Assembly (NCBI RefSeq): GCF_000775995.1
Contig: NZ_CP009227.1
Coordinates: forward strand, 1,902,296 to 1,966,295
Direction of reading: 5' to 3'
From: Treponema sp. OMZ 838
GTDB taxonomy: Bacteria > Spirochaetota > Spirochaetia > Treponematales > Treponemataceae
DNA: 64,000 bases
Under the pieces are notes generated by a model. The model ran no database searches. It saw nothing but the letters and a program-made list of their open reading frames with translations, and was not told the DNA's origin. This document shows, piece after piece, positions 6,205 to 58,155 of the stretch. Every line of letters starts with the position of its first letter. The stretch's first letter is position 1. The position numbers and the translations under genes are program-made.

Positions 6205-7272
6205 TTACTTAGTAGAATTTCTCAGCTCATCATACCAGGCATCATCGGTAGCAACCAGCCGTGTCTTTTCGGAATACTTAGGATATATGCCTTTTTTACC
6301 GGAATCCTTTACATTAAAAATGCCGGGATTATTTGCCGTCTTATCCGATGTCAGCGCATCTCGTATCTTTTGTATATCCGAGGCTGAAACCGTATTCGTA
6401 TTAACGGTAATCGGCGCATTTAAGACCGGAATTGAGCGGATGACGGTCATTTCACTTCCTGCAAAGGATGTGAAGGGTTCGTCGGCTCCTACGGTTACGC
6501 GGTATACGGCGCCTGTTTTATAATCTTCCCCGTCGAGCAGTTCATACACACCGATTGTCTGCGGGATCGCAAAGGCCGCCGCATCAGCATCACCACGGAA
6601 AAGATTTACCTGTGAGCCCTGATGAGAACCGGCAAACAGCACTTTGGAAAATACCTTGTCGCTCAAGATAAGATCATCGGTGTTGTCAATAGAAAAAGCC
6701 GCTGCTAAAACGCGTGCGGGAATAACAAAACCCGATGTGGAACTTGCCGCTACAAACGACATTCTTTTGCCTTGCAATAGGCTTAAATCAAAACTGCCGT
6801 CGGCTTTTCTATAGATATCGGCATCTTTCCTCTGGACGCCGATAAAGCTGTAATACTTTGCATCGTCAAGCGTTCCGCTGGGCCCCGAATTCGTTGCAAC
6901 AGGGATAACGGCGCTGTTCCGTTTATGTGCAGTAATGTATCCTTCGGCACCGACATAGGCCATATCAGCCTTACCGGAAACGAGCGCTTCCAATGCGATG
7001 TTATAATCGGTCGTGGTAAGAATTTTAACGTCTCGGCCGACAGCTTCTTTTAAAATTTCTTGGAATGCAGCACGGGCATCCTTCATGGATTCGCTTGATT
7101 CATTGGGATAAAAAACCATGGTAAGCGGCTTTTGTTCCTTTTTGCTGCATGAACAAACAAGGAGTGTTGATAGGCAAAGTACGAAAAAGAACGGTTTAAC
7201 ATACCGCAACAACTTTCCGACGTTTTGGCGGGACATATCACCAATTAAAAATGATTTCATCACTTTCTCCAA
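6205..7272 (-). CDS. phnD: phosphonate ABC transporter substrate-binding lipoprotein PhnD
   Basis: PhnD family periplasmic binding protein with a lipoprotein signal (LSTLLVCSCS); first gene of the operon. The real start is probably an internal Met near 7236-7260. Confidence 0.8.
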   Translation of the reverse strand: MEKVMKSFLIGDMSRQNVGKLLRYVKPFFFVLCLSTLLVCSCSKKEQKPLTMVFYPNESSESMKDARAAFQEILKEAVGRDVKILTTTDYNIALEALVSGKADMAYVGAEGYITAHKRNSAVIPVATNSGPSGTLDDAKYYSFIGVQRKDADIYRKADGSFDLSLLQGKRMSFVAASSTSGFVIPARVLAAAFSIDNTDDLILSDKVFSKVLFAGSHQGSQVNLFRGDADAAAFAIPQTIGVYELLDGEDYKTGAVYRVTVGADEPFTSFAGSEMTVIRSIPVLNAPITVNTNTVSASDIQKIRDALTSDKTANNPGIFNVKDSGKKGIYPKYSEKTRLVATDDAWYDELRNSTK

Positions 7273-14279: not shown

Positions 14280-14455
14280 ACCCAGTTAGAATATCATAAA
14301 ATGATACGATAGACAACGCTCATTTTGAATCTGTGTTGAACACCAAAACTACCGGTGACGGAATACTATAGAGCAGGAGACCATTCAAAATGTTCTATCT
14401 TTGAACAGCCTCCTATTCATTTTCTCGGTAATACAATATTGTACCGCCGCCTCTT

Positions 14456-14680
14456 TTACGGATGGCGTGCAGCTACTCCTTTTTCGATCAGTGATATCAG
14501 TTGATCTTCATACCAATCTTGGGAATAGGGTGCATGCTGGCGGACAATCGGCCGAACTTTTGCTTCGATGGTGTCCTTGCAGGCTTCGCAAATATCATAT
14601 TCGCGGATATGCCAATAGGTTCTTCCGGTTATGGGATTAACCAATTCTTTTTTGCAAATGTCACAATGTAAAGTTTTCAT
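14456..14680 (-). CDS. small zinc-ribbon protein (two CxxC pairs)
   Basis: 74 aa with CDIC ... CEAC. Confidence 0.4.
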   Translation of the reverse strand: MKTLHCDICKKELVNPITGRTYWHIREYDICEACKDTIEAKVRPIVRQHAPYSQDWYEDQLISLIEKGVAARHP

Positions 14681-14752
14681 AACGATGCTCTCCTAATAAT
14701 AAAGCTTGTATACAAAAGCATACCGTATATTCGTTTTTTTGTCGAGTCAATC

Positions 14753-14898
14753 GGGTAAACGCATCAGGCTGTTTTTTAACAACCCCGCAGAATTATTGAG
14801 GCTGTTCAACCAGAATTGAACCTCTTCGCGGTTCAAATGGTCTCACAGCCTCAATAATTCTGCGATTTTCATCTACCGTGCCTGATGCGTTTACCCTC
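14753..14898. repeat. 146-nt near-perfect long hairpin (MITE-like or structured RNA)
   Basis: Outer 17-bp perfect inverted repeat GGGTAAACGCATCAGGC / GCCTGATGCGTTTACCC, inner 20-bp perfect inverted repeat CGCAGAATTATTGAGGCTGT / ACAGCCTCAATAATTCTGCG, and central GAACC-TCTTCGC-GGTTC. Confidence 0.6.
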
Positions 14899-14929
14899 CG
14901 TATAAAAGAAACTTTCCGTAATCTCGCTA

Positions 14930-15395
14930 CTGCTTGGAACCACCGCCATCCATGGCGGTTCTGCCTCTCCAACGCTTTTGCAAATAGACGATGCAGATGC
15001 TAGGAGTTAGGCAAAAAAGTACCGCAGGCACGGTACAAAATGTACATCCCTGTACATTTTGTACCTACGTGTTTGCCCTGCAAACACGCTACTGACTAGA
15101 ACCACCGCCATCCGTGGCGGAAATGATACGTTGAGCATTTATTGCAGAAGCGGCACGGATGCCGCTGATTTAAACAGAAGCGATATTTCGGCTTTGCCGA
15201 AATTCGCCATTAAAAGTGTACACGGATGTACACTTTTAATGATGCGACGCAGTAGATGCACCGTATCTCCAACGCTTTTGAAATAGACGGTATAGATACA
15301 AGGAGCTAGCTGAAAATAAAGCGGAGGCGTATCTATGATACGTTGAGCATTTATTTTCAGCGTACGACGCAGTAGATATGCCGTATATTTCAAAA
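14930..15395. repeat. hairpin-dense intergenic repeat element, copy A of a multi-copy family
   Basis: Shares about 150-bp and about 130-bp modules with 28597-28985 and a core with 25655-25690. The modules include GAACCACCGCCATCCRTGGCGG, GGTACAAAATGTACA-TCCC-TGTACATTTTGTACC, CGTGTTTGC-NNN-GCAAACACG and GCYGAAAATAAA...TTTATTTTCRGC. Confidence 0.65.
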
Positions 15396-17102
15396 GGCTG
15401 TGTCGTTGATGCTATTAAGCCACTCCGTACACGCCGGTACTACGGAAGCAATGCAGCCTTCTTTAAAGGGATTTTTCAAGTTGGCCAGTTCCACCAGGCG
15501 GAGGAAGGAGTCGCGGCCGCCCGCTTTACAGAGACGCAGATAATCTTCCCAGGCCGTTTTGCGGTCGGAAAGGCTTTTTGCCCAGAATTGCAATGCGCAT
15601 ACTTGAGCAAGTGTGTAATCGATGTAATAAAACGGCGTACTGAAGATATGTCCTTGGCGCATCCAATAACCGCCGCGGTTCAAGAAATCGTTATCGTCGT
15701 AATCCCGTGCAGGTAGGTACTTTTTTTCGATACTGCGCCATGCAGCTTTTCGTTCTGCGGGGCTTGCTTCGGGATGCTCATATACCCAGTGTTGAAACTC
15801 GTCTACCGTAACGCCGTAGGGTAAAAACAGGAGCGCTCCGGATAGATGGGTAAAGCGGAACTTATCGGTTTGCTCTTCAAAAAACAGATTCATCCACGGC
15901 CATGTAAAGAATTCCATACTCATCGAGTGTATTTCGCAGGCTTCGTAGGTCGGCCATACGTACTCCAGCAGGCGGGCATTACGGCTCTGATAGGCTTGGA
16001 ATGCGTGCCCTGCTTCATGGGTCATTACCTCCACATCGTGCTGCGTATTGTTAAAGTTGGCAAAAATAAACGGCGCCTTGTAATCGGGAATTGTGGTACA
16101 ATAACCGCCTGCTGCCTTTCCTTTTTTTGCAAGCACATCGAGCATCTGATGCGAAGTCATGAAAGTAAAAAATTCATCGGTTTCCGGGGAAAGTTCCGCA
16201 TACATCTTTTTGGCATTTGCCAAAATCCAATCGGGATTGCCGTGAGGAATCGCATTGCCGGTGGTATATTCAAGCGGTTCATCATAGTAGTATAGCCGTT
16301 CCAACCCCAACCGTTTCGCCTGCCGTTTTCGTAAGTTCACGGCTATCGGCACAATTTCGCGGTAGATTTGATTCCGATAGGCAGCAACCATCTCGGCATT
16401 GTAGTCGGTTCTGCCCATCCGGTCGTATCCGAGCTGCACGAAGTTTTGATATCCGAGTTTTTTTGCGATGCGTGTACGCACTTTGACTAAATTATCGTAG
16501 ATGGAATCGAATTCTGCTTCGTGTTCCGCAAAAAAACCGTAGTAGGCTTTTGCCGCTTTTTTCCGTGTTGCACGGTCTTGATCCTGCATAAAAGGAGTCA
16601 GCTGCGCGAGCGTGCGTTTTTCTCCTGCAAATTCGATTTCTGCCGAAGCAATCAGTTTGTCGTAGCTGCTGGTAAGTTTGTTTTCTTCTGCTAAATCTTC
16701 CATAATAGAGGGTGAAAACACCTTCATATCAAGTTCGGTCATTGCGAAGATATGCGTCCCGAGTTCTTTTTCCAGCTCTTTACGGAACGATGAGGCAAGC
16801 AGTTTTTTATTAAAGCTATTGGTCATTTCGATATAAAACGGGTTTGATTCATCAAAAAACGTATTTTCGGCATCGTAAAAACCGTCACGGGTGTCGATAC
16901 TATGCCGTATTTCCGCAAGGGTCTGCATGGTTTGATAATGAGATTTGAGTTTTTGTATTTCATCAATGAGCGCGATCTGCTCTGCTGCCGAATGTGCGGC
17001 TTCGAACTGCTGTTCCGCTTTTTTAAATGCCGTTTTTAATGCCTCCATATCGGGGCGGGTATAGGGAAGGGCGGTAAATTGCTTCATTTCCGGTGTATTC
17101 AT
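15390..17102 (-). CDS. pepF: oligoendopeptidase F (M3B family zinc metallopeptidase)
   Basis: HEAGHAF zinc-binding HExxH motif and typical M3B length. The start is chosen at MNTPEMKQF, preceded by AAGGAG. Confidence 0.9.
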   Translation of the reverse strand: MNTPEMKQFTALPYTRPDMEALKTAFKKAEQQFEAAHSAAEQIALIDEIQKLKSHYQTMQTLAEIRHSIDTRDGFYDAENTFFDESNPFYIEMTNSFNKKLLASSFRKELEKELGTHIFAMTELDMKVFSPSIMEDLAEENKLTSSYDKLIASAEIEFAGEKRTLAQLTPFMQDQDRATRKKAAKAYYGFFAEHEAEFDSIYDNLVKVRTRIAKKLGYQNFVQLGYDRMGRTDYNAEMVAAYRNQIYREIVPIAVNLRKRQAKRLGLERLYYYDEPLEYTTGNAIPHGNPDWILANAKKMYAELSPETDEFFTFMTSHQMLDVLAKKGKAAGGYCTTIPDYKAPFIFANFNNTQHDVEVMTHEAGHAFQAYQSRNARLLEYVWPTYEACEIHSMSMEFFTWPWMNLFFEEQTDKFRFTHLSGALLFLPYGVTVDEFQHWVYEHPEASPAERKAAWRSIEKKYLPARDYDDNDFLNRGGYWMRQGHIFSTPFYYIDYTLAQVCALQFWAKSLSDRKTAWEDYLRLCKAGGRDSFLRLVELANLKNPFKEGCIASVVPACTEWLNSINDTAF

Positions 17103-17457
17103 TAATAGGCTCCTTACAATTGAACATCTGAACAAAGTGTTAACTTTGGAAGGTGTTCAATTCGTGCGCAGGCAGCGCACATACAATCTGCAAGTTTGCA
17201 CAAAGCAAACTTGACGTGTTTTTCAGCGGTACCATTTGTACCGCTGAAAATAAACATTCCTATGCTTTTTATAAAATTATACGGAGCGATTATAGCATAA
17301 GGCCGATATTTAGGACAGCATCGGGAATTCTCAGTAGAAATTCTTATATACACTTGACGGATATTCGATTAATTTGTATATATACGGCAATTAAAATATA
17401 AAGTTCCCTGATGCGTTGCATCAGTGAATCCCGCATTTTTTATTATGGAGTCTACTC

Positions 17458-19293
17458 GTGAAGAAACCTTTAATTATCTTTCTTTCAATCCTGTCTATTT
17501 TGTTCTTTTCAGCATGTAATAACAATTATCCCACGACCATCCCTGTTACGGGTATTGCATTTGAACCGGAACTTTCCACAAATCCAATTTCGCTTGCCAA
17601 GGATGAAACATATCAGCTTAATGCAAAGGCAAAGCCCGATAATGCAACGAATAAAAGGCTCGCCTATACTTCGGACAACCCAACTATTGCTTCCATCGAC
17701 GATAAAGGGTTGATTACCGCAAAAGCGGTTGGAAATGCACTCATTACCATAAAAGCAGCAGACGGTATTTCAAAAACGGTGAATCTGACTGTTACTCCGG
17801 AGCCGGTCCCGGTTACAAGCATTGTAATTGAGGGAACGACACCTGCCTCTTTATTTATCGGTCAAAGCTATAGAATCATGGCAAAAGCCCAACCTGATGA
17901 AGCAACGAATAAAGAGCTTTCCTACACCGCAGACAATAATAAAGCACATGTAACTTCCGATGGTACGGTAACCGCTCAATCGGAAGGGAGTGTAAACATA
18001 ACAGTAAAGTCCCAAAGCAATCCCGAAATTACAGCGACGGTTACTATCACTATAAAACAAAGACCCTCAATTGAACTGATAACAGAAGAAATTACGAGTG
18101 AAAGCAGTGAATCAAATCTGAATCTTGAAATAAAAACGCTCCATGGCAAGCTTTCATATACGCCTAAAATTGTTGGAGAAGGAAGCGGTTGGCTGAGCAT
18201 TATCAGTACAGACAACACTACAGATATGGAGAAAGATACCATATACCTAAAAGCTATTCAAAATAAAACTGTATGGAAGCGAACTGCCTATATTAACTTC
18301 GAGGATGGATCCAATCAAGTGATCAAAAATGCCAAGGGGGAAAAACTCGAAGTAAAAGTAGTTCAGAAAGAGAACGAGAACCCGAACGTAACAATAAAAT
18401 GGGTACACGGAATAGATGCTCCGACTGCAGATGAAAAAACAAAAATTGAAGTTCCTCATGTCGGTCAAGCTAAAAAATTTTATTGGAATGATGAAAATAT
18501 TTTCTTCTGGTATGAAAATGCGAATACGAAATGGTTCAACAATAGAAAGGCAAAGCCCGTAGGTGCAGTTGCTACCGACGGCGGCGATAGCAACCAATGC
18601 TGGGGTAAAACCGCTTCCAATATGCTGCATTGGTGGTTTGAGCAGAATGAAAACAATATAAATCAGTACATAGCAAAGAAAAATATAACAAGTCCTAAAA
18701 AGGATGAATATCAACATTTTTATTACCGGAATTTTTCCGGTAATCAAGAGCCGGAGAAAAGTTATATAGCAAAAACTTTCAGGACAAAGGCACATAACGG
18801 AGAGCTGGGGGGATATGTTATAAGCGGTCTTGCATGGTATCTCTACGGTAATACAAGTGCATCACACCCCAGCACCCCCACATACGAAGGACCTGCTTTA
18901 TTCAAAGATGTGTTTAGCAAAGAAGACACTCCTATTGAAGATAAAATTGTTATGAACAAAGTTGAGTTTGAAACAGTAATAACCGAAGCGCTTAATTCTA
19001 AAAAAGCAATCGGACTACACATGCGGGGTACAAAGGGCGGAAAAGATTATGGCCATGCAATAACACTTTGGGGTGCGGTCTTTGATGAAGAGGAAAATAT
19101 TATTGCAATCTATGTTGTTGACAATAATTATAAAGAAAACAGGATATTCCCTTATGGAATCTACTATAGAGATGGTCGCCCTTACATTTTTAACTATCCA
19201 AACAATGCATTCGCTACTGATAGGTATGTGGGTGAAGTAATTACCCTAGACAAAGCTGAAGCCCAGTGGCTGGATTGGCTGAGTAAACACTAG
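17458..19293 (+). CDS. lipoprotein with two Big_2 Ig-like domains and a C-terminal IdeS/Mac-1 (peptidase C66) cysteine protease domain (dentipain-like)
   Basis: GTG start after a GGAG RBS; lipobox LFFSAC. Big_2-like segments (ITAKAVGNALITIKAADGISKTVNLTV). The C-terminal region matches the IdeS catalytic-Cys region (CWGKTASNMLHWWFEQN vs IdeS CGAATAGNMLHWWFDQN) and the His region (HAITLWGAVFDEEENIIAIYVVDNN vs HVINLWGADFDSNGNLKAIYVTDSD). Confidence 0.8.
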   Translation: MKKPLIIFLSILSILFFSACNNNYPTTIPVTGIAFEPELSTNPISLAKDETYQLNAKAKPDNATNKRLAYTSDNPTIASIDDKGLITAKAVGNALITIKAADGISKTVNLTVTPEPVPVTSIVIEGTTPASLFIGQSYRIMAKAQPDEATNKELSYTADNNKAHVTSDGTVTAQSEGSVNITVKSQSNPEITATVTITIKQRPSIELITEEITSESSESNLNLEIKTLHGKLSYTPKIVGEGSGWLSIISTDNTTDMEKDTIYLKAIQNKTVWKRTAYINFEDGSNQVIKNAKGEKLEVKVVQKENENPNVTIKWVHGIDAPTADEKTKIEVPHVGQAKKFYWNDENIFFWYENANTKWFNNRKAKPVGAVATDGGDSNQCWGKTASNMLHWWFEQNENNINQYIAKKNITSPKKDEYQHFYYRNFSGNQEPEKSYIAKTFRTKAHNGELGGYVISGLAWYLYGNTSASHPSTPTYEGPALFKDVFSKEDTPIEDKIVMNKVEFETVITEALNSKKAIGLHMRGTKGGKDYGHAITLWGAVFDEEENIIAIYVVDNNYKENRIFPYGIYYRDGRPYIFNYPNNAFATDRYVGEVITLDKAEAQWLDWLSKH

Positions 19294-23687: not shown

Positions 23688-25598
23688 GTGCTTGGTATGC
23701 AGTTTTCGGCAATAGAACATCGCAGTACGGATAATTTTTGTTATCCCCTCAATGAAAATGAGCTCATGATCGGCATTAAAACCGGCAGCGACATACGGCG
23801 TGTATTTATTATCTACGGAGATCCGTTCGACGGTTCGGTAACACCGGACGGCTGGGCATGGGAAGGCAAACGGCAGGAAATCACTCGCAAAAAAGATCTT
23901 CCGTATCATACATGGTGGCAGGTAACGGTTACGCTTCCTTATGGACGGTGTAAATACTGCTTTGAACTGCACGGTCAAGATGAAGGCGATGTCCGCTACT
24001 GTCTGGAAAACGGGTTTTACACGGCAGAGGAGCTTGTTACGCTGCGCCGAATAACCGGTAATTTTCCCGGTTTTGAGTTTCCGTGGCTGGACGGCGCCGA
24101 ATGCGTCCGCGTACCGGATTGGGTACCCCGCACGGTGTGGTATCAAATTTTTCCCGATCGGTTTTGCAGGGATACCGCTTCGCAGAAACCGAATGCTTTG
24201 CCGTGGCCCGCTGCCGAGGATGCCGTTACCAACAATGAACACTATGGCGGTACGCTTCGGGGTATTATCGAAAAGCTCGACTATCTTGCCGATTTGAACA
24301 TTACCGGTTTATATCTTAATCCGGTTAATGCTTCGCCGAGTGTGCATAAGTATGATACATCCGATTATTTGAATATCGATCCTGCATTCGGTACTGCGGA
24401 AGACTTATGCATGTTGGTGAAAGAAGCCCATGCACGCGGTATAAAAGTGATGCTGGACGGTGTCTTTAACCACTGCGGCTGGGACTTTGCACTGTGGCAG
24501 GATGTTGTCCGCAACGGAAAAGCCTCGCCGTATTTCGATTGGTTTATCGTACAAGAATGGCCGTTTGAAACCGTTGCAGAACCGGAATGTGAAGCCGCCG
24601 CGAGCCGACCGTCCGGTACAAACGGAAAAAGCGGACGATACAGCGTTTTTGCGTATGTCGATACGATGCCAAAGCTGAATACCAATAATCCTGCCGTCAT
24701 CGATTATCTGCTGAACGTATGCGAAACATGGGTGCGCAGTTATGATATTGACGGGCTCCGGCTCGATGTTGCGAATGAGCTTTCGCACACATTTTGCAGG
24801 CAGCTTTATCGGCGGATGCGCAGTCTTAAAAAAGGCTTTTACCTGCTCGGTGAAATATGGCGCAGTGCCTTGCCGTGGCTGCGCGGCGGCGAGTTGGATT
24901 CGGTAATGAATTATCCGCTCGCGCTGTGCTTTTGGAAATTCTTTTACGATAAAACGCTGCCTGCCCTGACTTTGGAGCAGGACATAAACGCTGTTTTTAC
25001 GGCCTATCCCGAACCTGTTACCGTAGGCCTGTTTAATCTGCTGGACTCCCATGATACGCCGCGCCTTTTTACCCGCAACGGCGGCGATGTGTCCGCCGTA
25101 TGGCAGCAATACGCCCTGCTGTTGAGCCTGCCCGGTTCGCCGTGTATCTATTACGGCAGCGAGGTTTTGCTTGCAGGCGGAAATGATCCCGATTGCCGCC
25201 GCTGTATGCCGTGGCAGGCTATCGAAGCAGGTGAATACGCCGAACCGATGAGCATGATGCGGCAGTTGATTGCTTTGCGCTATACGCATCCGGCAATGAC
25301 CGCTTCCGGTTACTCATATCTGCATGACGTGCCGCTTACCGAAAGCGAACCGAATAGAATTATTCATTTGCAAAAGTATGCCGAAACGGTAGAACCTGCG
25401 GAAACTACGGAGACCGTTGAAAGCGCGGAAATTCCGATTACGCGGAGCATAGACCTCATTCTCAATTGCGGTACGGCTCCGGTATCAATCGCACAGGTAA
25501 TAGATGAAAAGGCACGGGTATACCTCTCCCTGCGCTGCAGGGATAAAACGGTACAGCCCGGCGGCTTTATCTTTTTTGAACACCTCATCAACCGATGA
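23688..25598 (+). CDS. GH13 neopullulanase / cyclomaltodextrinase / maltogenic amylase family enzyme
   Basis: N-terminal domain followed by GH13 regions DGVFNHCG, GLRLDVANE, GEIW and LLDSHDTPR. Confidence 0.85.
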   Translation: MLGMQFSAIEHRSTDNFCYPLNENELMIGIKTGSDIRRVFIIYGDPFDGSVTPDGWAWEGKRQEITRKKDLPYHTWWQVTVTLPYGRCKYCFELHGQDEGDVRYCLENGFYTAEELVTLRRITGNFPGFEFPWLDGAECVRVPDWVPRTVWYQIFPDRFCRDTASQKPNALPWPAAEDAVTNNEHYGGTLRGIIEKLDYLADLNITGLYLNPVNASPSVHKYDTSDYLNIDPAFGTAEDLCMLVKEAHARGIKVMLDGVFNHCGWDFALWQDVVRNGKASPYFDWFIVQEWPFETVAEPECEAAASRPSGTNGKSGRYSVFAYVDTMPKLNTNNPAVIDYLLNVCETWVRSYDIDGLRLDVANELSHTFCRQLYRRMRSLKKGFYLLGEIWRSALPWLRGGELDSVMNYPLALCFWKFFYDKTLPALTLEQDINAVFTAYPEPVTVGLFNLLDSHDTPRLFTRNGGDVSAVWQQYALLLSLPGSPCIYYGSEVLLAGGNDPDCRRCMPWQAIEAGEYAEPMSMMRQLIALRYTHPAMTASGYSYLHDVPLTESEPNRIIHLQKYAETVEPAETTETVESAEIPITRSIDLILNCGTAPVSIAQVIDEKARVYLSLRCRDKTVQPGGFIFFEHLINR

Positions 25599-25599
25599 A

Positions 25600-25780
25600 C
25601 TTCCGTGTACATCGGTTGATGGCGAATTTTGGCAATGCCAAAATATCGCTTCTGTTATAACCACCGCCATCCGTGGCGGTAAAGTTTGCGGTGCAAACTC
25701 GATTATTTACGGGTGCGCCGTCCTGAACTTCGGAGCAAAGCTCCTCGTTGCAGGACATGCGCACGGCTAAAAACTTTTTC
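25600..25780. repeat. partial copy (copy C) of the hairpin repeat family
   Basis: Contains AACCACCGCCATCCGTGGCGGT plus the hairpins ATTTTGGCA-ATGCC-AAAAT and GTTTGCGGTGCAAAC. Confidence 0.5.
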
Positions 25781-28596: not shown

Positions 28597-28985
28597 TATA
28601 TTTGCAAAAGGGCGCTTTCGAAAAAAAGCTTCCGTAAGCTTTTGCAAAGAGACGGTATAGATGCTAGGAGCGTACAAAAAACACCCGCAGGCACGGTAAA
28701 AAATGTACGTCCTGTACATTTTTTACCTACGTGTTTGCTGCGCAAACACGCTGCTGCGTAGAACCACCGCCGTCCATGGCAGTTCTGATACGTCGAAGAC
28801 TAATTTGTTCGCAGCAACAAAGTAGATACACACATCCAGCGCTTTTGCAAAGAGACGGCGTAGATACAAGGAGTTAGCCGAAAATAAAGCGCAGGCGTAT
28901 TTATATACGTTGAGCATTTATTTTCGGCGTGCGACGCAGTAGATGCGTCGTATATTTGCAAAAGACTAGTCGACACGAAAAAGTT
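28597..28985. repeat. hairpin-dense intergenic repeat element, copy B of the family
   Basis: Collinear with 14967-15120 and with 15268-15395. Stems carry compensatory substitutions relative to copy A. Confidence 0.65.
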
Positions 28986-34987: not shown

Positions 34988-35128
34988 AGTCTAAAGTTTT
35001 ATCTGGGGGCCTCACTCCGTTCGGGGCGCTACGTCCGCTGTTCCGCTTTCGCTCCATTCCTCCACTTCGTTTCTGTACGGACAAGGATGTCCGTGATGTG
35101 AATCAGCAGCTCCTATCGCTAACCCTGT
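34988..35128. repeat. left copy of a roughly 150-bp direct repeat flanking the GNAT/ATPase cassette
   Basis: About 90% identical to 37097-37245. Begins with the iteron-like CTAAAGTTTTATCTGG and the motif CCTCACTCCGTTCGGG. Confidence 0.7.
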
Positions 35129-37115: not shown

Positions 37116-37245
37116 TTATATGGTGGTTTTCTCACTCCGTTCGGGTCGCTACGTCTGCTGTTTCGCTTTCGCTCCATTTCTCCGCTTCGTTTCTATACGG
37201 ACAAGGATGTCCGTGATGTGAATCAGAAGCTCCCATCGCTAATCC
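37097..37245. repeat. right copy of the roughly 150-bp direct repeat
   Basis: See 34988-35128. The 30-bp start motif TATATGGTGGTTTTCTCACTCCGTTCGGG also occurs at 42270-42300. Confidence 0.7.
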
Positions 37246-37335
37246 TATTGTAGCGGTATACATTATCTCTCTATAGACTAAGGCTATGAGCAGGGGGCGG
37301 AGCGGTTTGTTACATTATACCGCCCGCCTATGATA

Positions 37336-38791: not shown

Positions 38792-40537
38792 ATGAAGGAA
38801 AAAGAAAAAAGTCCTTCGCCTATCGCGTGGGCGTTGGGACAAACAGGGGAACACAAAGGACAATATGTTTTGAGTGTTATCCTCGCAGTCATCGGTGTGG
38901 CCTTTTCCATCGCACCGTATTTTGTTGTTGCCGGCATCGTACATGGTTTGATGGGCGGAAACAAAGACCTTTCATATTATATGATACGTTGTCTGATTAT
39001 CGCAGCGTTCTGGTTTTGCCGTGTACTGTTTCATGCGCTCAGTACATCGACAAGTCATAGAGCAACGTTTGCAGTACTCGCTGAACTCCGAAAACGCTGC
39101 ACGGAAAAACTGACAAGAATGCCGCTGGGGGCGGTGCTGGAGCAAAGTTCCGGGGCGCTCAAAAATACGCTCATCGAACGTATCGACAGCATTGAAACAA
39201 CACTGGCGCATATCGTTCCGGAGTTCACCGCAAATTTACTGATCCCCGTCATCATTTTGATCTACATTTTTACCATTGATTGGCGTATGGGGCTGGCTTC
39301 GCTTGCAACGATACCGGTGGGATTTTTCTGTTATAGTCTTATGATGAAGGGCAGTCCTCAATTTTATCAACGCACGGTTACAGCCACCAAAGCGCTCAAT
39401 GATACGGCGGTTGAATATATCGGCGGTATTCAAGTCATCAAAGTTTTCGGAAATACAAAAAGTTCCTACGACCGCTTTGTGCATGATGCCTATGAAGCCG
39501 CTCACAGCTATATCGATTGGATGCGCTCCTGCATTCTCACCTTTACATTCGCCACGGTAATCATGCCCGCTACAATGGTTTCCGTGCTCCCCATCGGCGG
39601 TCTTTTGGTAAAAGGCGGCTCTCTTTCTCCGCAGAATCTGGTAACAATTATTATTCTGTCTGTCGGCATCATCACACCGCTTATAACCTTGATGAGTTAT
39701 TCGGACGATTTTCGAACCATGGGAACCATCTTCGGTGAAGTTCAAAGTATTCTGTATGCTCCCGAAATGGAGCGCCCTGTAGACGGAACTGTTCCAAAGA
39801 GAAATACGCTGAAACTGCAGGATGTTCATTTTTCGTATAAGGAAAAGGAAGTGCTTCACGGCATTTCGATGGAAATCCCGGAGGGCCGTTTTATTGCGCT
39901 GGTCGGTCCTTCCGGCAGCGGAAAGAGTACCATTGCGCGCCTCATCGCTTCGCTTTGGGATGTGAGCAGCGGCTCAATTTTGCTGGGGGATACGGACATT
40001 CGCGCAATTCCGCAAGAGGCCTATTCGGATAAGATTGCCTTTGTCTCGCAGGATAATTATCTATTCAACATGACGGTCAGGGAAAATATCCGCATCGGAC
40101 GGGCGGATGCAACTGATGCGGAAGTGGAGGAAGCGGCGAGACAAAGCGGTTGCCATGAATTCATTATGGAGCTGGAAAACGGTTACGATACTTTGGTAGG
40201 CACTTCCGGCGGGCATCTTTCCGGCGGCGAGCGGCAGCGTATTTCCATTGCCAGAGCAATGCTGAAAGCGGCGCCCATTATCATTTTGGATGAAGCAACC
40301 GCATACACCGATCCTGAAAACGAGGCGGTCATTCAGCGCTCTATCTCGAAGCTGACGGAGGGGAAGACGCTCATCGTGATTGCGCACCGGCTCTCGACGG
40401 TCTCCTCTGCGGATTGTATTTATGTCATTAAAGACGGCGCCGTTGCAGACAGCGGAACTCATGATGAGCTTCTTTCTCATCACGGGTTATATGAAACGAT
40501 GTGGAATGCACATATTGAGGTGAAAGATCATGCTTAA
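38792..40537 (+). CDS. ABC exporter, fused permease/ATPase subunit (heterodimer partner 1)
   Basis: Six-TM domain plus NBD (GPSGSGKST, LSGGERQRISIARA, IIILDEAT). Confidence 0.9.
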   Translation: MKEKEKSPSPIAWALGQTGEHKGQYVLSVILAVIGVAFSIAPYFVVAGIVHGLMGGNKDLSYYMIRCLIIAAFWFCRVLFHALSTSTSHRATFAVLAELRKRCTEKLTRMPLGAVLEQSSGALKNTLIERIDSIETTLAHIVPEFTANLLIPVIILIYIFTIDWRMGLASLATIPVGFFCYSLMMKGSPQFYQRTVTATKALNDTAVEYIGGIQVIKVFGNTKSSYDRFVHDAYEAAHSYIDWMRSCILTFTFATVIMPATMVSVLPIGGLLVKGGSLSPQNLVTIIILSVGIITPLITLMSYSDDFRTMGTIFGEVQSILYAPEMERPVDGTVPKRNTLKLQDVHFSYKEKEVLHGISMEIPEGRFIALVGPSGSGKSTIARLIASLWDVSSGSILLGDTDIRAIPQEAYSDKIAFVSQDNYLFNMTVRENIRIGRADATDAEVEEAARQSGCHEFIMELENGYDTLVGTSGGHLSGGERQRISIARAMLKAAPIIILDEATAYTDPENEAVIQRSISKLTEGKTLIVIAHRLSTVSSADCIYVIKDGAVADSGTHDELLSHHGLYETMWNAHIEVKDHA

Positions 40538-42269
40538 AGTTATTAGAAAGTTTTTTGCGTTCTGCGGTGAAGAAAACCGCCGGAAATTTATCACTTCCAT
40601 TCGGCTCAATGTTATCCAGGCGCTGTTTGAGGCGCTAAAGATTCCGGCGATTGCAGTGATGATTCGGGCGCTGATGAACGGAACGGTAGACACAAACGAT
40701 ATCCTGCTCTCGTTAGGGATTATGCTGATCAGCATTGCCGGATCGGGATTGCTAAAATCAAAGGCTGTTATCTTGCAGACCGAAGGGGGCTATGACACTT
40801 GTGCGAAAAAACGAGTGGAGATTGCGGAGCATCTGCGGTATCTTCCGATGGGATACTTTAACGCCAACAGCCTCGGGCAGATTACGTCTATCACAACTAA
40901 TATAATGGAAAGCCTTGAAAATATTGCAACCCGTGTGGTAATGCTTGTCTGCGACGGTCTGCTTACAACTTCGCTTATTGTCATCATGTTGTTTTTCTTC
41001 GATTGGAGAATCGCCTGTGTACTGCTCTGCGGTTTTTCGCTGTTTCTTTTTGCAAACAGCCGTCTCCGGATTGCTTCCGAAAAGGTGTCGGGAAAAAAGA
41101 TACGCGCAGATGAAAGACTCGTAGAAAAGGTTCTGGAATACCTGCAAGGAATGACCGAGGTTAAGGCTTACCGGTTGACGGGAGTTAAGAGCAAGGAATT
41201 AAATGAGGCTATCTCGGAAAACAGTAAGATCAATATCGACATGGAAATGACACTGGTGCCGCGCATAGCATTGCAGAGTTTTATCGCCAAGCTTACCGGT
41301 GCGGCAATGGTAGCTTTTTCATGCGTATTTTATTGTGCCGGAAGTATGGACGCGCTGAATGCTGTTGTCATGGTAATCTCCTCATTTATCATCTATACCA
41401 GTCTGGAAACGGCAGGACAATACTCGTCACTGCTGCGCGTAGTTGATATGAGTGTTGACCGGGCGCAGGAAATTCTGAACACGCCGCAGATGGATATATC
41501 CGGAGAAAATATTACACCGGCAGTGCGTGATATTACTGCGCAGGATATAGCATTTTCGTATGAGAAGCGAAAGATCATCGACGGGATTTCATTGCATATT
41601 CCTGAAAAGACCACGACGGCGATTGTCGGACCTTCCGGCGGAGGAAAAACCACCTTAGTAAATCTGCTTGCACGGTTCTGGGATGTAGACGGGGGAACCG
41701 TTATGCTGGGCGGCCGGAATGTGAAAGATTACGATATGGATTCCTTGATGGCGAATTTCAGTTTTGTGTTCCAATCGGTCTATTTATTCCACGACACCAT
41801 CGCCAACAATATCCGCTTTGGTCAGCCCGGCGCTCCGATGGCGGATGTGATCGCTGCGGCAAAAAAAGCCTGCTGCCATGACTTTATCTCAAGCCTTCCC
41901 CAAGGATACGATACGGTTGTCGGTGAAGGCGGCGCAAGCCTTTCCGGCGGCGAAAAGCAGCGCATCTCTATTGCCCGCGCCATGATGAAAAACGCACCGG
42001 TCATCTTTTTGGATGAGGCAACCGCCAACGTTGATCCCGAAAATGAAAACGAACTGATGCACGCCGTCCAAGCGCTTACCGCCGAAAAGACCGTCATCAT
42101 GATAGCCCACCGGCTGAAAACCGTTGAGAGAGCCGATCAAATCATCGTCGTAGACCACGGCAAGATTGTACAGCAGGGCACACATGCCGAACTGATGGAG
42201 CAGGACGGCATTTACCGAAACTTTATCGGCGAGCGTCGCGAAGCTGCAAGTTGGAAGGTACATAAATAA
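40530..42269 (+). CDS. ABC exporter, fused permease/ATPase subunit (heterodimer partner 2)
   Basis: NBD motifs GPSGGGKTT, LSGGEKQRISIARA, VIFLDEAT. 8-nt overlap with the partner gene. Confidence 0.9.
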   Translation: MLKVIRKFFAFCGEENRRKFITSIRLNVIQALFEALKIPAIAVMIRALMNGTVDTNDILLSLGIMLISIAGSGLLKSKAVILQTEGGYDTCAKKRVEIAEHLRYLPMGYFNANSLGQITSITTNIMESLENIATRVVMLVCDGLLTTSLIVIMLFFFDWRIACVLLCGFSLFLFANSRLRIASEKVSGKKIRADERLVEKVLEYLQGMTEVKAYRLTGVKSKELNEAISENSKINIDMEMTLVPRIALQSFIAKLTGAAMVAFSCVFYCAGSMDALNAVVMVISSFIIYTSLETAGQYSSLLRVVDMSVDRAQEILNTPQMDISGENITPAVRDITAQDIAFSYEKRKIIDGISLHIPEKTTTAIVGPSGGGKTTLVNLLARFWDVDGGTVMLGGRNVKDYDMDSLMANFSFVFQSVYLFHDTIANNIRFGQPGAPMADVIAAAKKACCHDFISSLPQGYDTVVGEGGASLSGGEKQRISIARAMMKNAPVIFLDEATANVDPENENELMHAVQALTAEKTVIMIAHRLKTVERADQIIVVDHGKIVQQGTHAELMEQDGIYRNFIGERREAASWKVHK

Positions 42270-54930: not shown

Positions 54931-54982
54931 CTTTCCCTTCCATAAAATGCATCAATATTTTGGAAATATACGACTCTCATTC

Positions 54983-55117
54983 TACCGCTGCTTACTATCG
55001 CCCCAGCCGTGCCAATGCCCGTGTATCGGGATCTACATCGTATTGTATTTCTTCATAGAGATTATCGTCAATACAGCGGCGTTCAATCATCTTTTCAATG
55101 ATGGTGTTGCGGCAGAG
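54983..55117. repeat. about 137-bp direct repeat, copy 1: orphan duplicate of the 3' end of gene 56461..57084
   Basis: About 96% identical to 56451-56589. Confidence 0.7.
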
Positions 55118-55209
55118 GGAATATTTGAAAAAGGAATTCAACATACAAAGGATTTCGTGTTATTGGCGGCTTTTGAGCTTACCATCACTGATCACCCCTG
55201 AATCTTCGA

Positions 55210-56443: not shown

Positions 56444-56460
56444 TCTTTTACCACTGCTTA

Positions 56461-57084
56461 CTATCGCTCCCTCCGTGCCAATGCCCGTGTATCGGGATCT
56501 ACATCGTATTGTATTTCTTCATAGAGATTATCGTCAATACAGCGGCGTTCAATCATCTTTTCAACGATGGTGTTACGGCAGAGGGGGCATTTCATGTTAC
56601 GATACAGTATCCGGAGAATATCGTTAAACACGGGATCTTCGGCTAACGCCTTTGACTCTAGAGCCGTATGTTTTATCTCATGTATATCGAAGATAGTGCA
56701 CAGCTCAAGCAAGTTAAAAAGCTCAGTCTTTTTGTTTTCAGAGTAATATTTCAAGCAGACTTTTATAAAGGCATTTCTGGTATTGTCGTCATACCGGTCT
56801 TTTAAAAAATCATAGACGGCAGGATCATTGAAGGGAACAAGCGCTTCGATAATATCTTGCCGAAACGGCTTATTTTCAGTTGCTTCAAAAGAATCGAAGA
56901 GTACCTGTGCAGGAATTTTGATTTGCCGTTCTTCGAATAATCGGATAAGTCTTTTTTTCAACGGCAGTTCAGCTTCAAGAAATACATTCGAAAGTTTTTG
57001 GATATCGGCTTCGCTTGCACGTCTTCGTACCCATCTCCAAAGGCTGATACGTTCCAGTCGGGTTGGGGAGGGTTTTCTTTTCAA
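56461..57084 (-). CDS. hypothetical alpha-helical protein
   Basis: 207 aa; its 3' end is duplicated at 54983-55117; 4-nt overlap with the upstream gene. Confidence 0.4.
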   Translation of the reverse strand: MKRKPSPTRLERISLWRWVRRRASEADIQKLSNVFLEAELPLKKRLIRLFEERQIKIPAQVLFDSFEATENKPFRQDIIEALVPFNDPAVYDFLKDRYDDNTRNAFIKVCLKYYSENKKTELFNLLELCTIFDIHEIKHTALESKALAEDPVFNDILRILYRNMKCPLCRNTIVEKMIERRCIDDNLYEEIQYDVDPDTRALARRER

Positions 57085-57761: not shown

Positions 57762-58155
57762 TACTCCAATTGTGTAATAACCCCGACATCAACATTGAGC
57801 CCGCGGATTTTCAGTGCATTAAAAATGATATTTTCCACATCTACTGAATATTTTTGCGTAAAAGCGCAAAAAATTCCAGTAGATGTTTTGCTTATTCTAT
57901 AAAATCTTTCCCATTTTGTCTCTTTTCTTTCTCAATAAGGCTGAAAAAAAGCCGAAAATCATAAAGACGAACGTTTATTTTCAGCCGTTGAAATAGCGCG
58001 GCTGAAAAACACTGCGAGTTTGCTTTCGCAAACGTCGTAGATTATATGTGCGCTTTTCGCGCACGAATGCAACAGTTTCCAAAGTTGATACTTTGTTCAA
58101 CTGTTGCATTTTAAGGAAAGTTTATCTATATAGAGGCAAATTGGAGGTTCAATAC

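What the first reader, a model, noticed from the sequence alone, without database searches (positions are those of the whole stretch)
14753..14898. 146-nt near-perfect long hairpin (MITE-like or pre-sRNA)
Nested perfect inverted repeats of 17 bp and 20 bp plus a central GAACC/GGTTC stem fold the whole 146-nt segment into one long imperfect hairpin with two symmetric internal loops. Elements like this are typical of MITEs or of processed structured RNAs. It sits immediately next to repeat copy A.
Basis: seen in the sequence. Interest (0 to 1): 0.55.

Follow-up and report, generated by a model that had tools for sequence, protein, structure and literature searches.

The report
New hairpin repeat family in oral treponemes
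The 146-base hairpin is real and is one copy of a previously uncatalogued family of about 150-base hairpin-forming intergenic repeats, found dozens of times per genome in oral Treponema; it belongs to a familiar kind of bacterial repeat whose function is still unknown.

Summary
The hairpin at 14753-14898 exists as described. It has perfect 17-bp and 20-bp nested stems and folds at -85/-81 kcal/mol, z about -14 against shuffles. It is single-copy in the window and matches no Rfam family.

It is not a chance palindrome. Its 24-nt apex occurs at 78 sites in Treponema genomes, at least 24 of them in T. plautii OMZ 806, and at 120 or more metagenome sites.

Across 58 copies, 95.6% of stem positions pair and 29 of 47 pairs show compensatory changes. 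The apical internal loop is almost invariant. The window's minus strand is the better-folding strand.

Copies within one genome are old (about 75% identical). They are retained at orthologous loci across species, show no target-site duplications and have no visible transposase partner. They sit beside unrelated housekeeping genes, so an active MITE, an integron attC site and a riboswitch are all unlikely.

The hairpin occurs in mosaics with TD-1/TD-2 motifs and terminator-like hairpins. Here it lies between a peptidase gene's terminator and the promoter of a 74-aa gene.

Best reading: a new ERIC/REP-like structured repeat that is selected as a folded single strand, probably RNA. Its function remains inferred.

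The parts
14753..14898 (-). Whole hairpin element, a member of the new repeat family. The functional orientation is the window's minus strand.
   Evidence: Covariance model R1 scores 168.9 bits on the - strand and 84.9 bits on the + strand.
14880..14896 (-). P1 5' arm (GGGTAAACGCATCAGGC), the outer stem.
   Evidence: It is a perfect 17-bp complement of 14753-14769. Thirteen of the 16 P1 pairs covary across the family.
14753..14769 (-). P1 3' arm (GCCTGATGCGTTTACCC). It forms the sharp right-hand boundary of the repeat.
   Evidence: Searches support the pairing. Family conservation ends at CCCTG. This arm is retained even in strains that lack the rest of the element (L003, L005).
14865..14879 (-). 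5' internal loop (ACGGTAGATGAAAAT). Its family consensus is roughly gYAGArTAGATAAAAAT.
   Evidence: The loop stays unpaired and is moderately conserved in alignment A1.
14845..14864 (-). P2 5' arm (CGCAGAATTATTGAGGCTGT), the inner stem. Its sequence is hypervariable across the family.
   Evidence: It is a perfect 20-bp complement of 14786-14805. Thirteen of 18 pairs show compensatory changes.
14806..14844 (-). Apex: P3 (GACCA/TGGTT), the conserved internal loop (U / CUC-type), P4 (TTGAACC/GGTTCAA) and the loop GCGAAGA. It contains the family's 24-nt core at 14816-14839.
   Evidence: The core is invariant in A1, but A1 was collected by exact match to that core. Copies found by the model without the exact core keep CAUUUGA...AAACUCUG while the P4 stem covaries.
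14786..14805 (-). P2 3' arm.
14770..14785 (-). 3' internal loop (GGGTTGTTAAAAAACA). In other strains and species, other repeats are inserted here at the CTGCGG^GG junction.
   Evidence: Insertions or junctions at this point are seen in L006-8, L018, L010, L047, L003 and L005.
14717..14745 (-). Promoter-like site (TCGACA-17-TATGCT) immediately downstream of the hairpin.
   Evidence: This is a consensus scan only. The sequence is conserved in all ten orthologous loci.
14456..14680 (-). Downstream 74-aa ORF with two Cys pairs, preceded by AGGAGA. It has no Pfam family.
   Evidence: An identical protein is encoded on 23 or more contigs.
15019..15036 (-). Terminator-like hairpin plus T6, upstream of the hairpin and inside a TD-2 copy. 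It lies downstream of the peptidase gene.
   Evidence: Consensus scan.
15028..15121 (-). TD-2 RNA motif copy, an adjacent repeat module.
   Evidence: Rfam RF03162, 66.1 bits against a gathering score of 48.7.
15149..15245 (+). TD-2 RNA motif copy, an adjacent repeat module in the opposite orientation.
   Evidence: Rfam RF03162, 72.5 bits.
15390..17135 (-). Upstream M3-family oligoendopeptidase gene, on the same strand as the hairpin.
   Evidence: Peptidase_M3 is recorded for the orthologs in L002, L003 and L006. My own Pfam scan of the window ORF returned nothing at E <= 0.001.

Best explanation
The segment is one copy of an undescribed family of about 150-nt polar hairpin repeats in oral phylogroup-I treponemes. 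The window is about 99% identical to Treponema sp. OMZ 305, i.e. T. plautii.

Its architecture has four parts:
- a 16-17-bp basal stem (P1);
- two roughly 16-nt internal loops;
- a roughly 20-bp stem (P2) whose sequence varies but always stays complementary;
- a nearly invariant apex, CAUUUGA-[short stem-loop]-AAACUCUG.

Copies lie in intergenic regions in mosaics with other structured repeats: TD-1, TD-2, a terminator-like palindrome and a mini-hairpin. In these respects the family resembles enterobacterial ERIC and REP/BIME elements.

Shown: the family exists; its helices are kept by compensatory change; copies are old and retained at orthologous loci; and one strand (the window's minus strand) folds better.

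Inferred: the element acts as a folded single strand. The most likely form is RNA, made by read-through from the upstream unit or from a promoter of its own. It would act at transcript boundaries as a processing, stability or termination barrier, with the conserved apex serving as a protein recognition site. In the window it would separate the peptidase gene's transcript from the promoter of the 74-aa gene.

I put about 0.95 on the family membership and about 0.4 on the RNA-boundary mechanism.
For: Family and distribution:
- The covariance model finds about 12 more copies that lack the exact core.

Structure:
- 47 pairs are predicted and 29 show compensatory changes.
- 95.6% of cells pair. The covariation score is 0.345 against 0.089 or less for slid controls, and 0 of 500 shuffles reach it.
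- The result holds among paralogs of one genome: 24 of 49 pairs.
- The P4 stem covaries in variant copies.

Age and retention:
- Orthologs are 92-100% identical, usually at least as conserved as the adjacent coding sequence.
- Paralogs have a median identity of about 75%.

Polarity:
- The model scores about twice as high in one orientation.
- The forward strand is more stable in 84 of 95 copies.
- G-U pairs outnumber A-C mismatches 108 to 46.
- The polarity is the same whichever way the neighbouring gene points.

Context:
- A terminator-like palindrome plus T-run lies 15-20 nt upstream in 29 of 41 copies.
- Promoter-like or leaderless starts lie 40-60 nt downstream in several copies.
- In the window the order is terminator, hairpin, promoter.
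- TD-1 lies directly upstream in L012, L032, L042 and L048.
- The organism was identified through the 2,842,704-bp genome size of OMZ 305.
Against: - No transcript data were available, so RNA has not been shown.
- No sigma-70-type promoter is conserved upstream of the hairpin or inside it.
- No U-tract follows the hairpin.
- Orientation relative to the downstream gene is only weakly biased once redundancy is removed: 60 same-strand against 36 opposite. My earlier figure of 63 against 11 was inflated by orthologous duplicates and crude ORF calls.
- The G-U excess is partly inherited within subfamilies, so its nominal p-value overstates independence.
- Complementarity in DNA quasi-palindromes can also be restored by template switching, without any selection on RNA.
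Confidence: 0.6

Rival explanations
1. It is a DNA-level element. The hairpin would be the single-stranded DNA (or cruciform) form of a REP-like repeat recognised by a strand-specific DNA enzyme, such as a domesticated HUH/RAYT-type transposase, a topoisomerase or a nucleoid protein. Alternatively it is an old, immobilised MITE whose arms are kept complementary by template-switch correction.
For: - Its polarity is independent of the orientation of flanking genes.
- It folds strongly as DNA.
- Subfamilies share P2 sequences at different loci, e.g. L012/L048/L078/L082/L084/L088 at 90-93% identity.
- Alleles are swapped at orthologous loci: window against L001 is 76.7% identical with 99-100% identical flanks, and L010 carries chimeric inner-stem arms.
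- Other repeats nest in its loops: TD-2 in the apex in L041 and L004, and TD-2-like or 'family X' repeats in the 3' internal loop in L010, L047, L006-8 and L018.
- The outer stem resembles terminal inverted repeats.
Against: - There are no target-site duplications.
- No transposase-like neighbour or long-range arm pair was found in the fetched loci.
- No identical paralogs exist.
- The asymmetric internal loops and unpaired apical nucleotides are conserved, whereas template switching should erase them.
- Orientation does not follow local GC skew: 29 positive against 24 negative.
Confidence: 0.3
2. It is a cis-regulatory leader of the downstream gene, either riboswitch-like or bound by a protein. 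It would resemble TD-1, which lies between promoter and ribosome-binding site.
For: - About nine non-orthologous copies have a Shine-Dalgarno sequence and start codon within about 25 nt of the P1 3' arm; all are in same-strand tandem contexts.
- The internal loops and apex are conserved.
- The window's TD-1 (58006-58115) ends just before a ribosome-binding site, and the TD-1-like copy (17111-17259, minus strand) lies between a TATAAT box and one.
Against: - Downstream genes are functionally unrelated, for example a tyrosine recombinase, an amidohydrolase, an acyl-CoA dehydrogenase, an AIR-synthase-related protein, an ABC ATPase, signal peptidase II, DNA polymerase III delta' and Hsp33.
- In 36 of 96 sites the next gene is on the other strand, and the hairpin abuts its stop codon.
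- In several copies, and in the window, the gene's promoter lies downstream of the hairpin.
- The element contains no expression platform such as a terminator or a sequestered ribosome-binding site.
Confidence: 0.07
3. It is an integron attC-type or other site-specific recombination site.
For: - It is an imperfect palindrome of about the size of Vibrio VCR attC sites.
- Treponema carries chromosomal integrons.
- The locus is rearranged between strains, with breakpoints inside the element.
Against: - Treponema denticola attC sites are 63-68 bp with conserved AAC/GTT triplets (PMC3607928). The hairpin's corresponding positions vary (TAAAC, CAACC, TAATC, TAAGC, CGACT).
- Conservation is central, not terminal.
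- Copies are dispersed singly next to housekeeping genes rather than arranged in cassette arrays.
- The spacing of the apical inverted repeat is not conserved.
Confidence: 0.02
4. It is a chance palindrome or an assembly artefact.
For: It is single-copy within the 64-kb window.
Against: - The fold z-score is about -14.
- More than 100 independent homologs exist in isolates and metagenomes.
- The element is present in complete genomes CP051147 and NZ_CP050497.
Confidence: 0.01

Closest known systems
ERIC / IRU (enterobacterial repetitive intergenic consensus; about 127-bp imperfect palindromes). This comparison rests on my own knowledge of the literature.
   Same: Both are long imperfect palindromes of 125-150 nt with a highly conserved central inverted repeat. 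Both occur tens of times per genome, only in intergenic regions, in either orientation relative to the neighbouring genes. Both have larger variants created by insertions at fixed internal sites, and neither has a known transposase.
   Different: There is no sequence similarity and the phylum differs (Spirochaetota). Here the stems are hypervariable with compensation, whereas ERIC copies are conserved throughout. This family also occurs in mosaics with TD-1/TD-2 and a terminator-like palindrome.
TD-1 (RF03155) and TD-2 (RF03162) RNA motifs (Weinberg et al. 2007, PMC1950547).
   Same: They occur in the same genomes and the same intergenic regions and are often directly adjacent. They are multi-copy with covariation, and they flank a wide array of unrelated genes. 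TD-2 shares a GAACC...GGTTC-type hairpin and is found inserted in the hairpin's apex.
   Different: The hairpin does not match either Rfam model, even at E <= 10. It is a single roughly 70-bp interrupted helix rather than three short hairpins. No T. denticola genome was among the 78 exact-core hits.
REP / BIME elements and their RAYT transposases. This comparison rests on my own knowledge.
   Same: Both are polar hairpin repeats with stems maintained by compensation. Both are stable at orthologous sites, clustered in mosaics with other motifs, and proposed to act in mRNA stabilisation or termination and in DNA-protein binding.
   Different: REPs are 20-40 nt, carry a conserved 5' tetranucleotide, occur hundreds of times per genome and lie mostly at 3' ends of genes. 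No RAYT-like gene was seen here, though this was not fully testable.
Correia / NEMIS elements of Neisseria and bacterial MITEs in general. This comparison rests on my own knowledge.
   Same: They are 100-155-bp elements with terminal inverted repeats that fold into long hairpins in transcripts. They often lie close to gene starts and can influence promoters, termination and RNase III processing.
   Different: Correia elements have TA target-site duplications, an IHF site and clear presence/absence polymorphism. This family has no target-site duplication and no clean empty site, and its copies are old.
Integron attC sites (VCR-type).
   Same: Both are imperfect palindromes that function as a folded single strand with strand polarity.
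   Different: The hairpin has no conserved R''/R' boxes, is not arranged in arrays and has the wrong size for Treponema attC sites.

Membership tests
MITE | Terminal inverted repeats at the element's ends | tested here: met
   The P1 arms are 17 bp and perfect in the window. They are present in the 58 aligned copies, which excluded five copies whose 3' arm was displaced by insertions, and their sequence covaries rather than staying fixed.
MITE | Target-site duplication flanking the element | tested here: not met
   The distribution of direct-repeat lengths at the 58 boundaries equals that of permuted flanks: 2 nt in 22 copies, 3 nt in 14, 5 nt in 1, against 25.3, 8.9 and 0.3 expected.
MITE | Presence/absence polymorphism with a precise empty site | tested here: not met
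   Strains lacking the hairpin (L003, L005) still carry the 3' loop and the P1 3' arm, with a PDDEXK_9 gene fragment abutting them. L004 keeps only the 3' half.
MITE | Many near-identical dispersed copies, indicating a recent burst | tested here: not met
   Among 21 OMZ 806 copies the median identity is about 75%, the best pair is 93%, and none is identical.
MITE | A related autonomous element carrying the same ends and a transposase | tested here: inconclusive
   None was found in about 500 kb of fetched loci. Whole genomes could not be scanned.
TD-1 / TD-2 (Rfam RF03155, RF03162) | A match to the Rfam covariance model at its gathering score | tested here: not met
   No hit overlaps 14753-14898, even at E <= 10. 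The neighbouring TD-2 copies do hit.
Integron attC | Conserved R'' (RYYYAAC) and R' (GTTRRRY) boxes at the ends | tested here: not met
   The window has GGTAAAC / GTTTACC, which do not fit the R/Y pattern. The AAC/GTT positions vary across copies. The criteria are taken from PMC3607928.
Integron attC | Arrays of co-oriented sites, each following a cassette ORF, near intI | tested here: not met
   There is one copy per roughly 8-kb locus, next to housekeeping genes.
Riboswitch / gene-specific cis-regulatory leader | A consistent 5'-UTR position upstream of functionally related genes | tested here: not met
   Ten downstream proteins hit ten unrelated sets of Pfam families. The next gene is on the other strand at 36 of 96 sites.
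Intrinsic terminator | A G+C-rich hairpin followed directly by a U-tract | tested here: not met
   No T-run follows P1 on the minus strand (GCGTTTACCC GATTGAC). The scan reports only the small apical stem as terminator-like. The separate palindrome upstream of other copies does meet this criterion.
ERIC/REP-like structured intergenic repeat (a descriptive class) | A multi-copy, exclusively intergenic, hairpin-forming repeat that is conserved within a clade | tested here: met
Structured non-coding RNA | Evidence of transcription, or a discrete RNA product | not testable with these tools
   No expression data are available. Only covariation and strand polarity support it.

The most novel reading that the evidence does not exclude
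The hairpin family would be a new class of functional structured RNA (a 'TD-3' motif) with its own polarity and perhaps its own transcription. A dedicated protein or nuclease would recognise its invariant apical internal loop. Together with TD-1, TD-2 and the terminator palindrome, it would form a genome-wide modular system marking or controlling transcript boundaries at dozens of loci in phylogroup-I oral treponemes. A DNA-level version of the same idea is a strand-specific ssDNA site for an unrecognised recombinase or nuclease, which would explain why other repeats nest in its loops.
Probability: 0.3. Interest if true: 0.65.

Novelty: new member of a known kind. Interest (0 to 1): 0.45.

Why it matters
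Structured intergenic repeats such as REP, ERIC and Correia elements shape mRNA stability, termination and genome rearrangement, but they are almost unstudied in spirochaetes. This family has unusually clean covariation and an invariant apex, so it is a strong candidate for a new Rfam family. It is also a handle for finding the protein that reads the apex.

The work shows that TD-1 and TD-2, described in 2007 as confined to T. denticola, extend to the T. medium / T. vincentii / T. plautii group and form mosaics with the hairpin.

On the practical side, these repeats break metagenome assemblies of oral treponemes, because many copies lie at contig ends. They also mark recombination-prone intergenic hotspots that differ between strains.

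Tried and rejected
- **Rfam:** searched at the gathering score over the whole window and at E <= 10 over 14300-15500. Nothing overlaps the hairpin.
- **Plasmid and phage collections:** blastn found no match.
- **attC:** rejected on box sequence, size and arrangement.
- **Riboswitch or regulon leader:** rejected because the downstream genes are unrelated.
- **Target-site duplications:** none beyond chance.
- **Autonomous element:** no P1 arms 1-3 kb apart around a gene. The only two such distances are between separate copies.
- **Recurrent neighbouring protein:** none such as a transposase. This is my own reading of the 49 upstream and 29 downstream ORF translations; only 10 were run through Pfam.
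- **Replication-strand link:** local GC skew shows no relation to orientation, 29 positive against 24 negative.
- **Promoter inside or just upstream of the hairpin:** no position-conserved sigma-70-like pair. The TTCCTT-17-nAAAAT arrangement is only a weak candidate.
- **Reverse complement as terminator of opposite-strand genes:** no enrichment of an A-run before P1 in those copies. The G-U polarity does not flip either.
- **Orientation bias, corrected:** my first estimate was 63 against 11. Codon-usage-scored gene calls on 116 deduplicated sites give 60 against 36.
- **Organism, corrected:** my first assumption of T. denticola was replaced by phylogroup-I Treponema.
- **Mini-ORF ATG-CGT-TTA-CCC-(GAT)-TGA in the P1 3' arm:** considered and dropped, because the ATG and the reading frame are not conserved.
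- **K-turn reading of the apical loop:** considered and dropped, because the strand polarity of the bulge is wrong.

Full report
**1.

The sequence at 14753-14898 contains a perfect 17-bp outer inverted repeat (14753-14769 with 14880-14896). It also contains a perfect 20-bp inner inverted repeat (14786-14805 with 14845-14864) and a central TTGAACC/GGTTCAA stem with a 7-nt loop.

As RNA it folds into a single interrupted hairpin. The energy is -80.7 kcal/mol on the + strand (z = -14.2) and -85.3 kcal/mol on the - strand (z = -13.7). As DNA the energy is -50.3 kcal/mol (z = -12.9). None of 200 dinucleotide-preserving shuffles came close.

The element is single-copy in the 64-kb window. This holds for arm searches with up to 3 mismatches and for a covariance-model search at E <= 10. 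No Rfam family matches it, even at E <= 10.

**2. Local setting**

The hairpin lies in a 709-nt intergenic region. Upstream is an M3-family oligoendopeptidase gene (15390-17135, minus strand). Downstream is a 74-aa ORF with two Cys pairs (14456-14680, minus strand).

Read on the minus strand, the order is:
- the peptidase gene;
- two TD-2 motif copies (RF03162: 15149-15245 on the + strand and 15028-15121 on the - strand), the second of which contains a terminator-like hairpin plus T6 at 15036-15019;
- a short GAACC...GGTTC hairpin;
- the 146-nt hairpin;
- a promoter-like TCGACA-17-TATGCT at 14745-14717;
- AGGAGA and the ATG.

The window also holds TD-2 copies at 25583-25680 and 28691-28783. 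It holds a TD-1 copy at 58006-58115 and a TD-1-like copy at 17111-17259 on the minus strand. The first ends just before a ribosome-binding site, and the second lies between a TATAAT box and one.

**3. Organism**

The window is 98.9% identical to CP051147.1 over this locus. That record's length, 2,842,704 bp, is the genome size given for Treponema sp. OMZ 305. OMZ 305 and OMZ 806 were recently proposed as Treponema plautii sp. nov., in the phylogroup-I T. medium/T. vincentii complex, and have only 69.5% ANI to T. denticola (PMC12781046). The window's G+C content is 44.7%, which fits.

TD-1 and TD-2 were described in 2007 as confined to T. denticola (PMC1950547). They therefore occur in this group too.

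**4. It is a member of a large family**

The 24-nt apex CATTTGAACCGCGAAGAGGTTCAA has exact matches at 78 sites among one-genome-per-species representatives. All are in Treponema: at least 24 in OMZ 806 and the rest in six uncultured oral Treponema MAGs. Many lie at contig ends, as expected for a repeat that breaks assemblies.

A covariance model built from 58 copies (R1) found about a dozen further copies without the exact core in the same loci. Plasmid and phage collections hold nothing similar.

**5. Structure is conserved by compensation**

In the 58-copy alignment, RNAalifold predicts 47 pairs, and 29 of them show changes on both sides that keep the pair.

Counting on that structure gives 95.6% paired cells and 266 doubly changed cells, against 77 +/- 9 in shuffles. 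The covariation score is 0.345 against 0.089 or less when the partners are slid by 1-3 columns, and 0 of 500 shuffles reach the observed values. The pattern holds for the paralogs of one genome: 22 OMZ 806 copies plus the window give 24 of 49 pairs with compensation.

P2 is almost free in sequence but is always complementary. P1 is moderately conserved.

The apex was invariant by ascertainment in the first alignment. Copies found by the model show that CAUUUGA and (G/C)AAACUCUG stay fixed while the enclosed P4 stem covaries: GAACC/GGUUC, GAAUCGC/GCGAUUC and GCCGC/GCGGC. The two internal loops of about 16 nt are kept unpaired and are moderately conserved.

**6. Polarity**

Every copy scores about twice as high with R1 in one orientation. 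For the window the scores are 168.9 bits on the minus strand and 84.9 on the plus strand. The forward strand is the more stable RNA in 84 of 95 non-redundant copies, by 7.2 kcal/mol on average.

In the stems, G-U pairs outnumber A-C mismatches 108 to 46, with one constitutively G-U position excluded. Many of these pairs are inherited within subfamilies, so the nominal p-value overstates independence.

The polarity is the same whether the adjacent gene is on the same or the opposite strand. It shows no relation to local GC skew.

**7. Genomic context**

A first count suggested a strong bias toward co-oriented downstream genes (63 against 11). That count included orthologous duplicates and used length-only ORF calls.

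With codon-usage-scored gene calls on 116 deduplicated sites, the downstream gene is co-oriented at 60 sites and opposite at 36. The upstream gene is co-oriented at 46 and opposite at 39. Where both neighbours are known, there are 24 forward-tandem, 20 divergent, 15 anti-tandem and 9 convergent sites. The preference for gene 5' sides is therefore real but modest.

The right end of the hairpin usually abuts a gene boundary. This is either a start 0-60 nt away or the stop codon of an opposite-strand gene -27 to +16 nt away.

Where the gene is co-oriented, two arrangements occur:
- A Shine-Dalgarno sequence and start codon follow within about 25 nt, always in same-strand tandem contexts.
- A sigma-70-like promoter fills the 40-60 nt gap, and several of these genes look leaderless.

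The neighbouring genes are unrelated housekeeping genes.

**8. Mosaic partners**

In most non-window copies, the conserved unit extends about 110 nt upstream and reads, 5' to 3':
- a mini-hairpin made of P1-like arms only (GGGCAACCGCAT...GCGGTTGCC);
- the motif TTCCTT;
- a 13-bp palindrome TGTGCGAAATTTT-N4-5-AAAATTTCGCACA followed by a T-run, which is intrinsic-terminator-like and is present in 29 of 41 copies, with its own compensatory changes;
- about 15 nt of spacer;
- the hairpin.

In four OMZ 806 loci a TD-1 copy lies immediately upstream on the same strand.

Other repeats are nested in the hairpin's unpaired regions:
- TD-2 sits in the apex in L041 and L004.
- A TD-2-like element sits in the 3' internal loop in L010 and L047.
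- An uncatalogued repeat of about 115 nt ('family X') sits at CTGCGG^GG in L006-8 and L018.

**9. Evolutionary behaviour**

Orthologous copies in species whose flanks are about 87-90% identical are themselves 92-100% identical. That is generally at least as conserved as the adjacent coding sequence. The 150 nt upstream of the hairpin are often unrelated between the same pairs.

Paralogs within OMZ 806 have a median identity of about 75%. One subfamily reaches 90-93%, and no two copies are identical.

The locus studied here is polymorphic:
- The window, L009 and L002 share one allele.
- L001 carries a different family member, 76.7% identical with many paired changes, between flanks that are 99-100% identical.
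- L010 is a chimera with mismatched inner arms.
- L003 and L005 retain only the 3' loop and the P1 3' arm next to a PDDEXK_9 gene fragment.
- L004 retains only the 3' half.

There are no target-site duplications and no sign of an autonomous partner.

**10. Interpretation**

The data exclude a chance palindrome, an attC site (T. denticola attC sites are 63-68 bp with AAC/GTT triplets and lie in arrays), a gene-specific riboswitch and an active MITE.

They fit a host-retained, polar, structured intergenic repeat. The class is best known from ERIC, REP/BIME and Correia elements, and the family is a sibling of TD-1/TD-2. Four features argue for selection on a defined fold in one strand: maintained helices in old paralogs, conserved unpaired loops, an invariant apex and a strand polarity.

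I consider RNA the most likely medium (about 0.4). The element would act at transcript boundaries, and in the window it would sit between a terminator and a promoter. The long helices would be natural RNase III substrates, and the apex would be a recognition site. These steps are inferred, not shown.

A strand-specific ssDNA role, or a decayed mobile element kept palindromic by template switching, remains a serious rival (about 0.3). The reasons are that the polarity ignores the direction of the neighbouring genes, and that other repeats insert into the hairpin's loops.

Transcript mapping in OMZ 305 or OMZ 806 would decide between these readings.

Noticed in passing
window 5' to 3': 15028-15121(-), 15149-15245(+), 25583-25680(-), 28691-28783(-), 58006-58115(+); also loci L012, L013, L018, L032, L042, L045, L048: TD-1 and TD-2 Rfam motifs were reported in 2007 as found only in Treponema denticola. 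They are present in this phylogroup-I Treponema window and in T. plautii OMZ 806. TD-1 often lies directly upstream of hairpin copies.
   Followed up: partly
window 17111-17259 (-): A TD-1-like copy, below Rfam's gathering score, is 77% complementary to the TD-1 at 57969-58117. It sits between a TATAAT box (about 17291-17296) and the AAGGAG/ATG of the M3 peptidase gene. This implies that the peptidase gene's real start is near 17102, not 17135.
   Followed up: partly
L006:2770-2885, L018 about 7040-7110, L012, L013, L026, L028: An uncatalogued repeat of about 115 nt ('family X') has the form AGGATTTAATACC...CGACGC..GCGTCG...GGGTATTAAAGCCGACTGCAACCAC...CCCCGACGCAAGCGTCGGGG...GTTGATT. It has internal hairpins, is inserted at a fixed point of the hairpin in some strains, and occurs elsewhere too. 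Rfam gave no hit on L018.
   Followed up: no
upstream of hairpin copies, e.g. L078:6275-6390(-), L070, L086: Two further conserved modules lie upstream of hairpin copies. One is a mini-hairpin made of the hairpin's outer arms only, followed by TTCCTT. The other is a covarying 13-bp palindrome, TGTGCGAAATTTT-N4-5-AAAATTTCGCACA, followed by a T-run that looks like an intrinsic terminator.
   Followed up: partly
L003:2657-2887, L005:1-774: In two strains a PDDEXK_9-family gene (truncated in L003) replaces everything left of the hairpin's 3' internal loop. The junction is the same one where other repeats insert.
   Followed up: no
L048, L052, L065, L020, L037 (40-60 nt downstream of hairpin copies): Several housekeeping genes appear to be leaderless. 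A TATACT/TATAAT-like box lies 5-9 nt before the ATG, with no Shine-Dalgarno sequence.
   Followed up: no
L089:1-97 (IMG/VR contig IMGVR_UViG_3300008680_000112): A 9.2-kb viral contig begins with the 3' half of a hairpin copy and continues with phage-like sequence of strongly skewed base composition (reading the sequence, it looks A+T-rich and terminase/portal-like). It may be a chimeric assembly or a prophage junction.
   Followed up: no
window 17458-19293 (+): A 611-aa protein with Big_2 domains and a Mac-1 (IdeS-like cysteine protease) domain is encoded divergently from the peptidase gene. Its length varies between strains (611-722 aa).
   Followed up: no
window 54980-55126 / 56446-56592; 35011-35126 / 37131-37246; 40181-40323 / 41904-42046: Three pairs of direct repeats of 116-147 nt, at 71-93% identity, lie 1.5-2.1 kb apart. 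They are probably paralogous genes.
   Followed up: no
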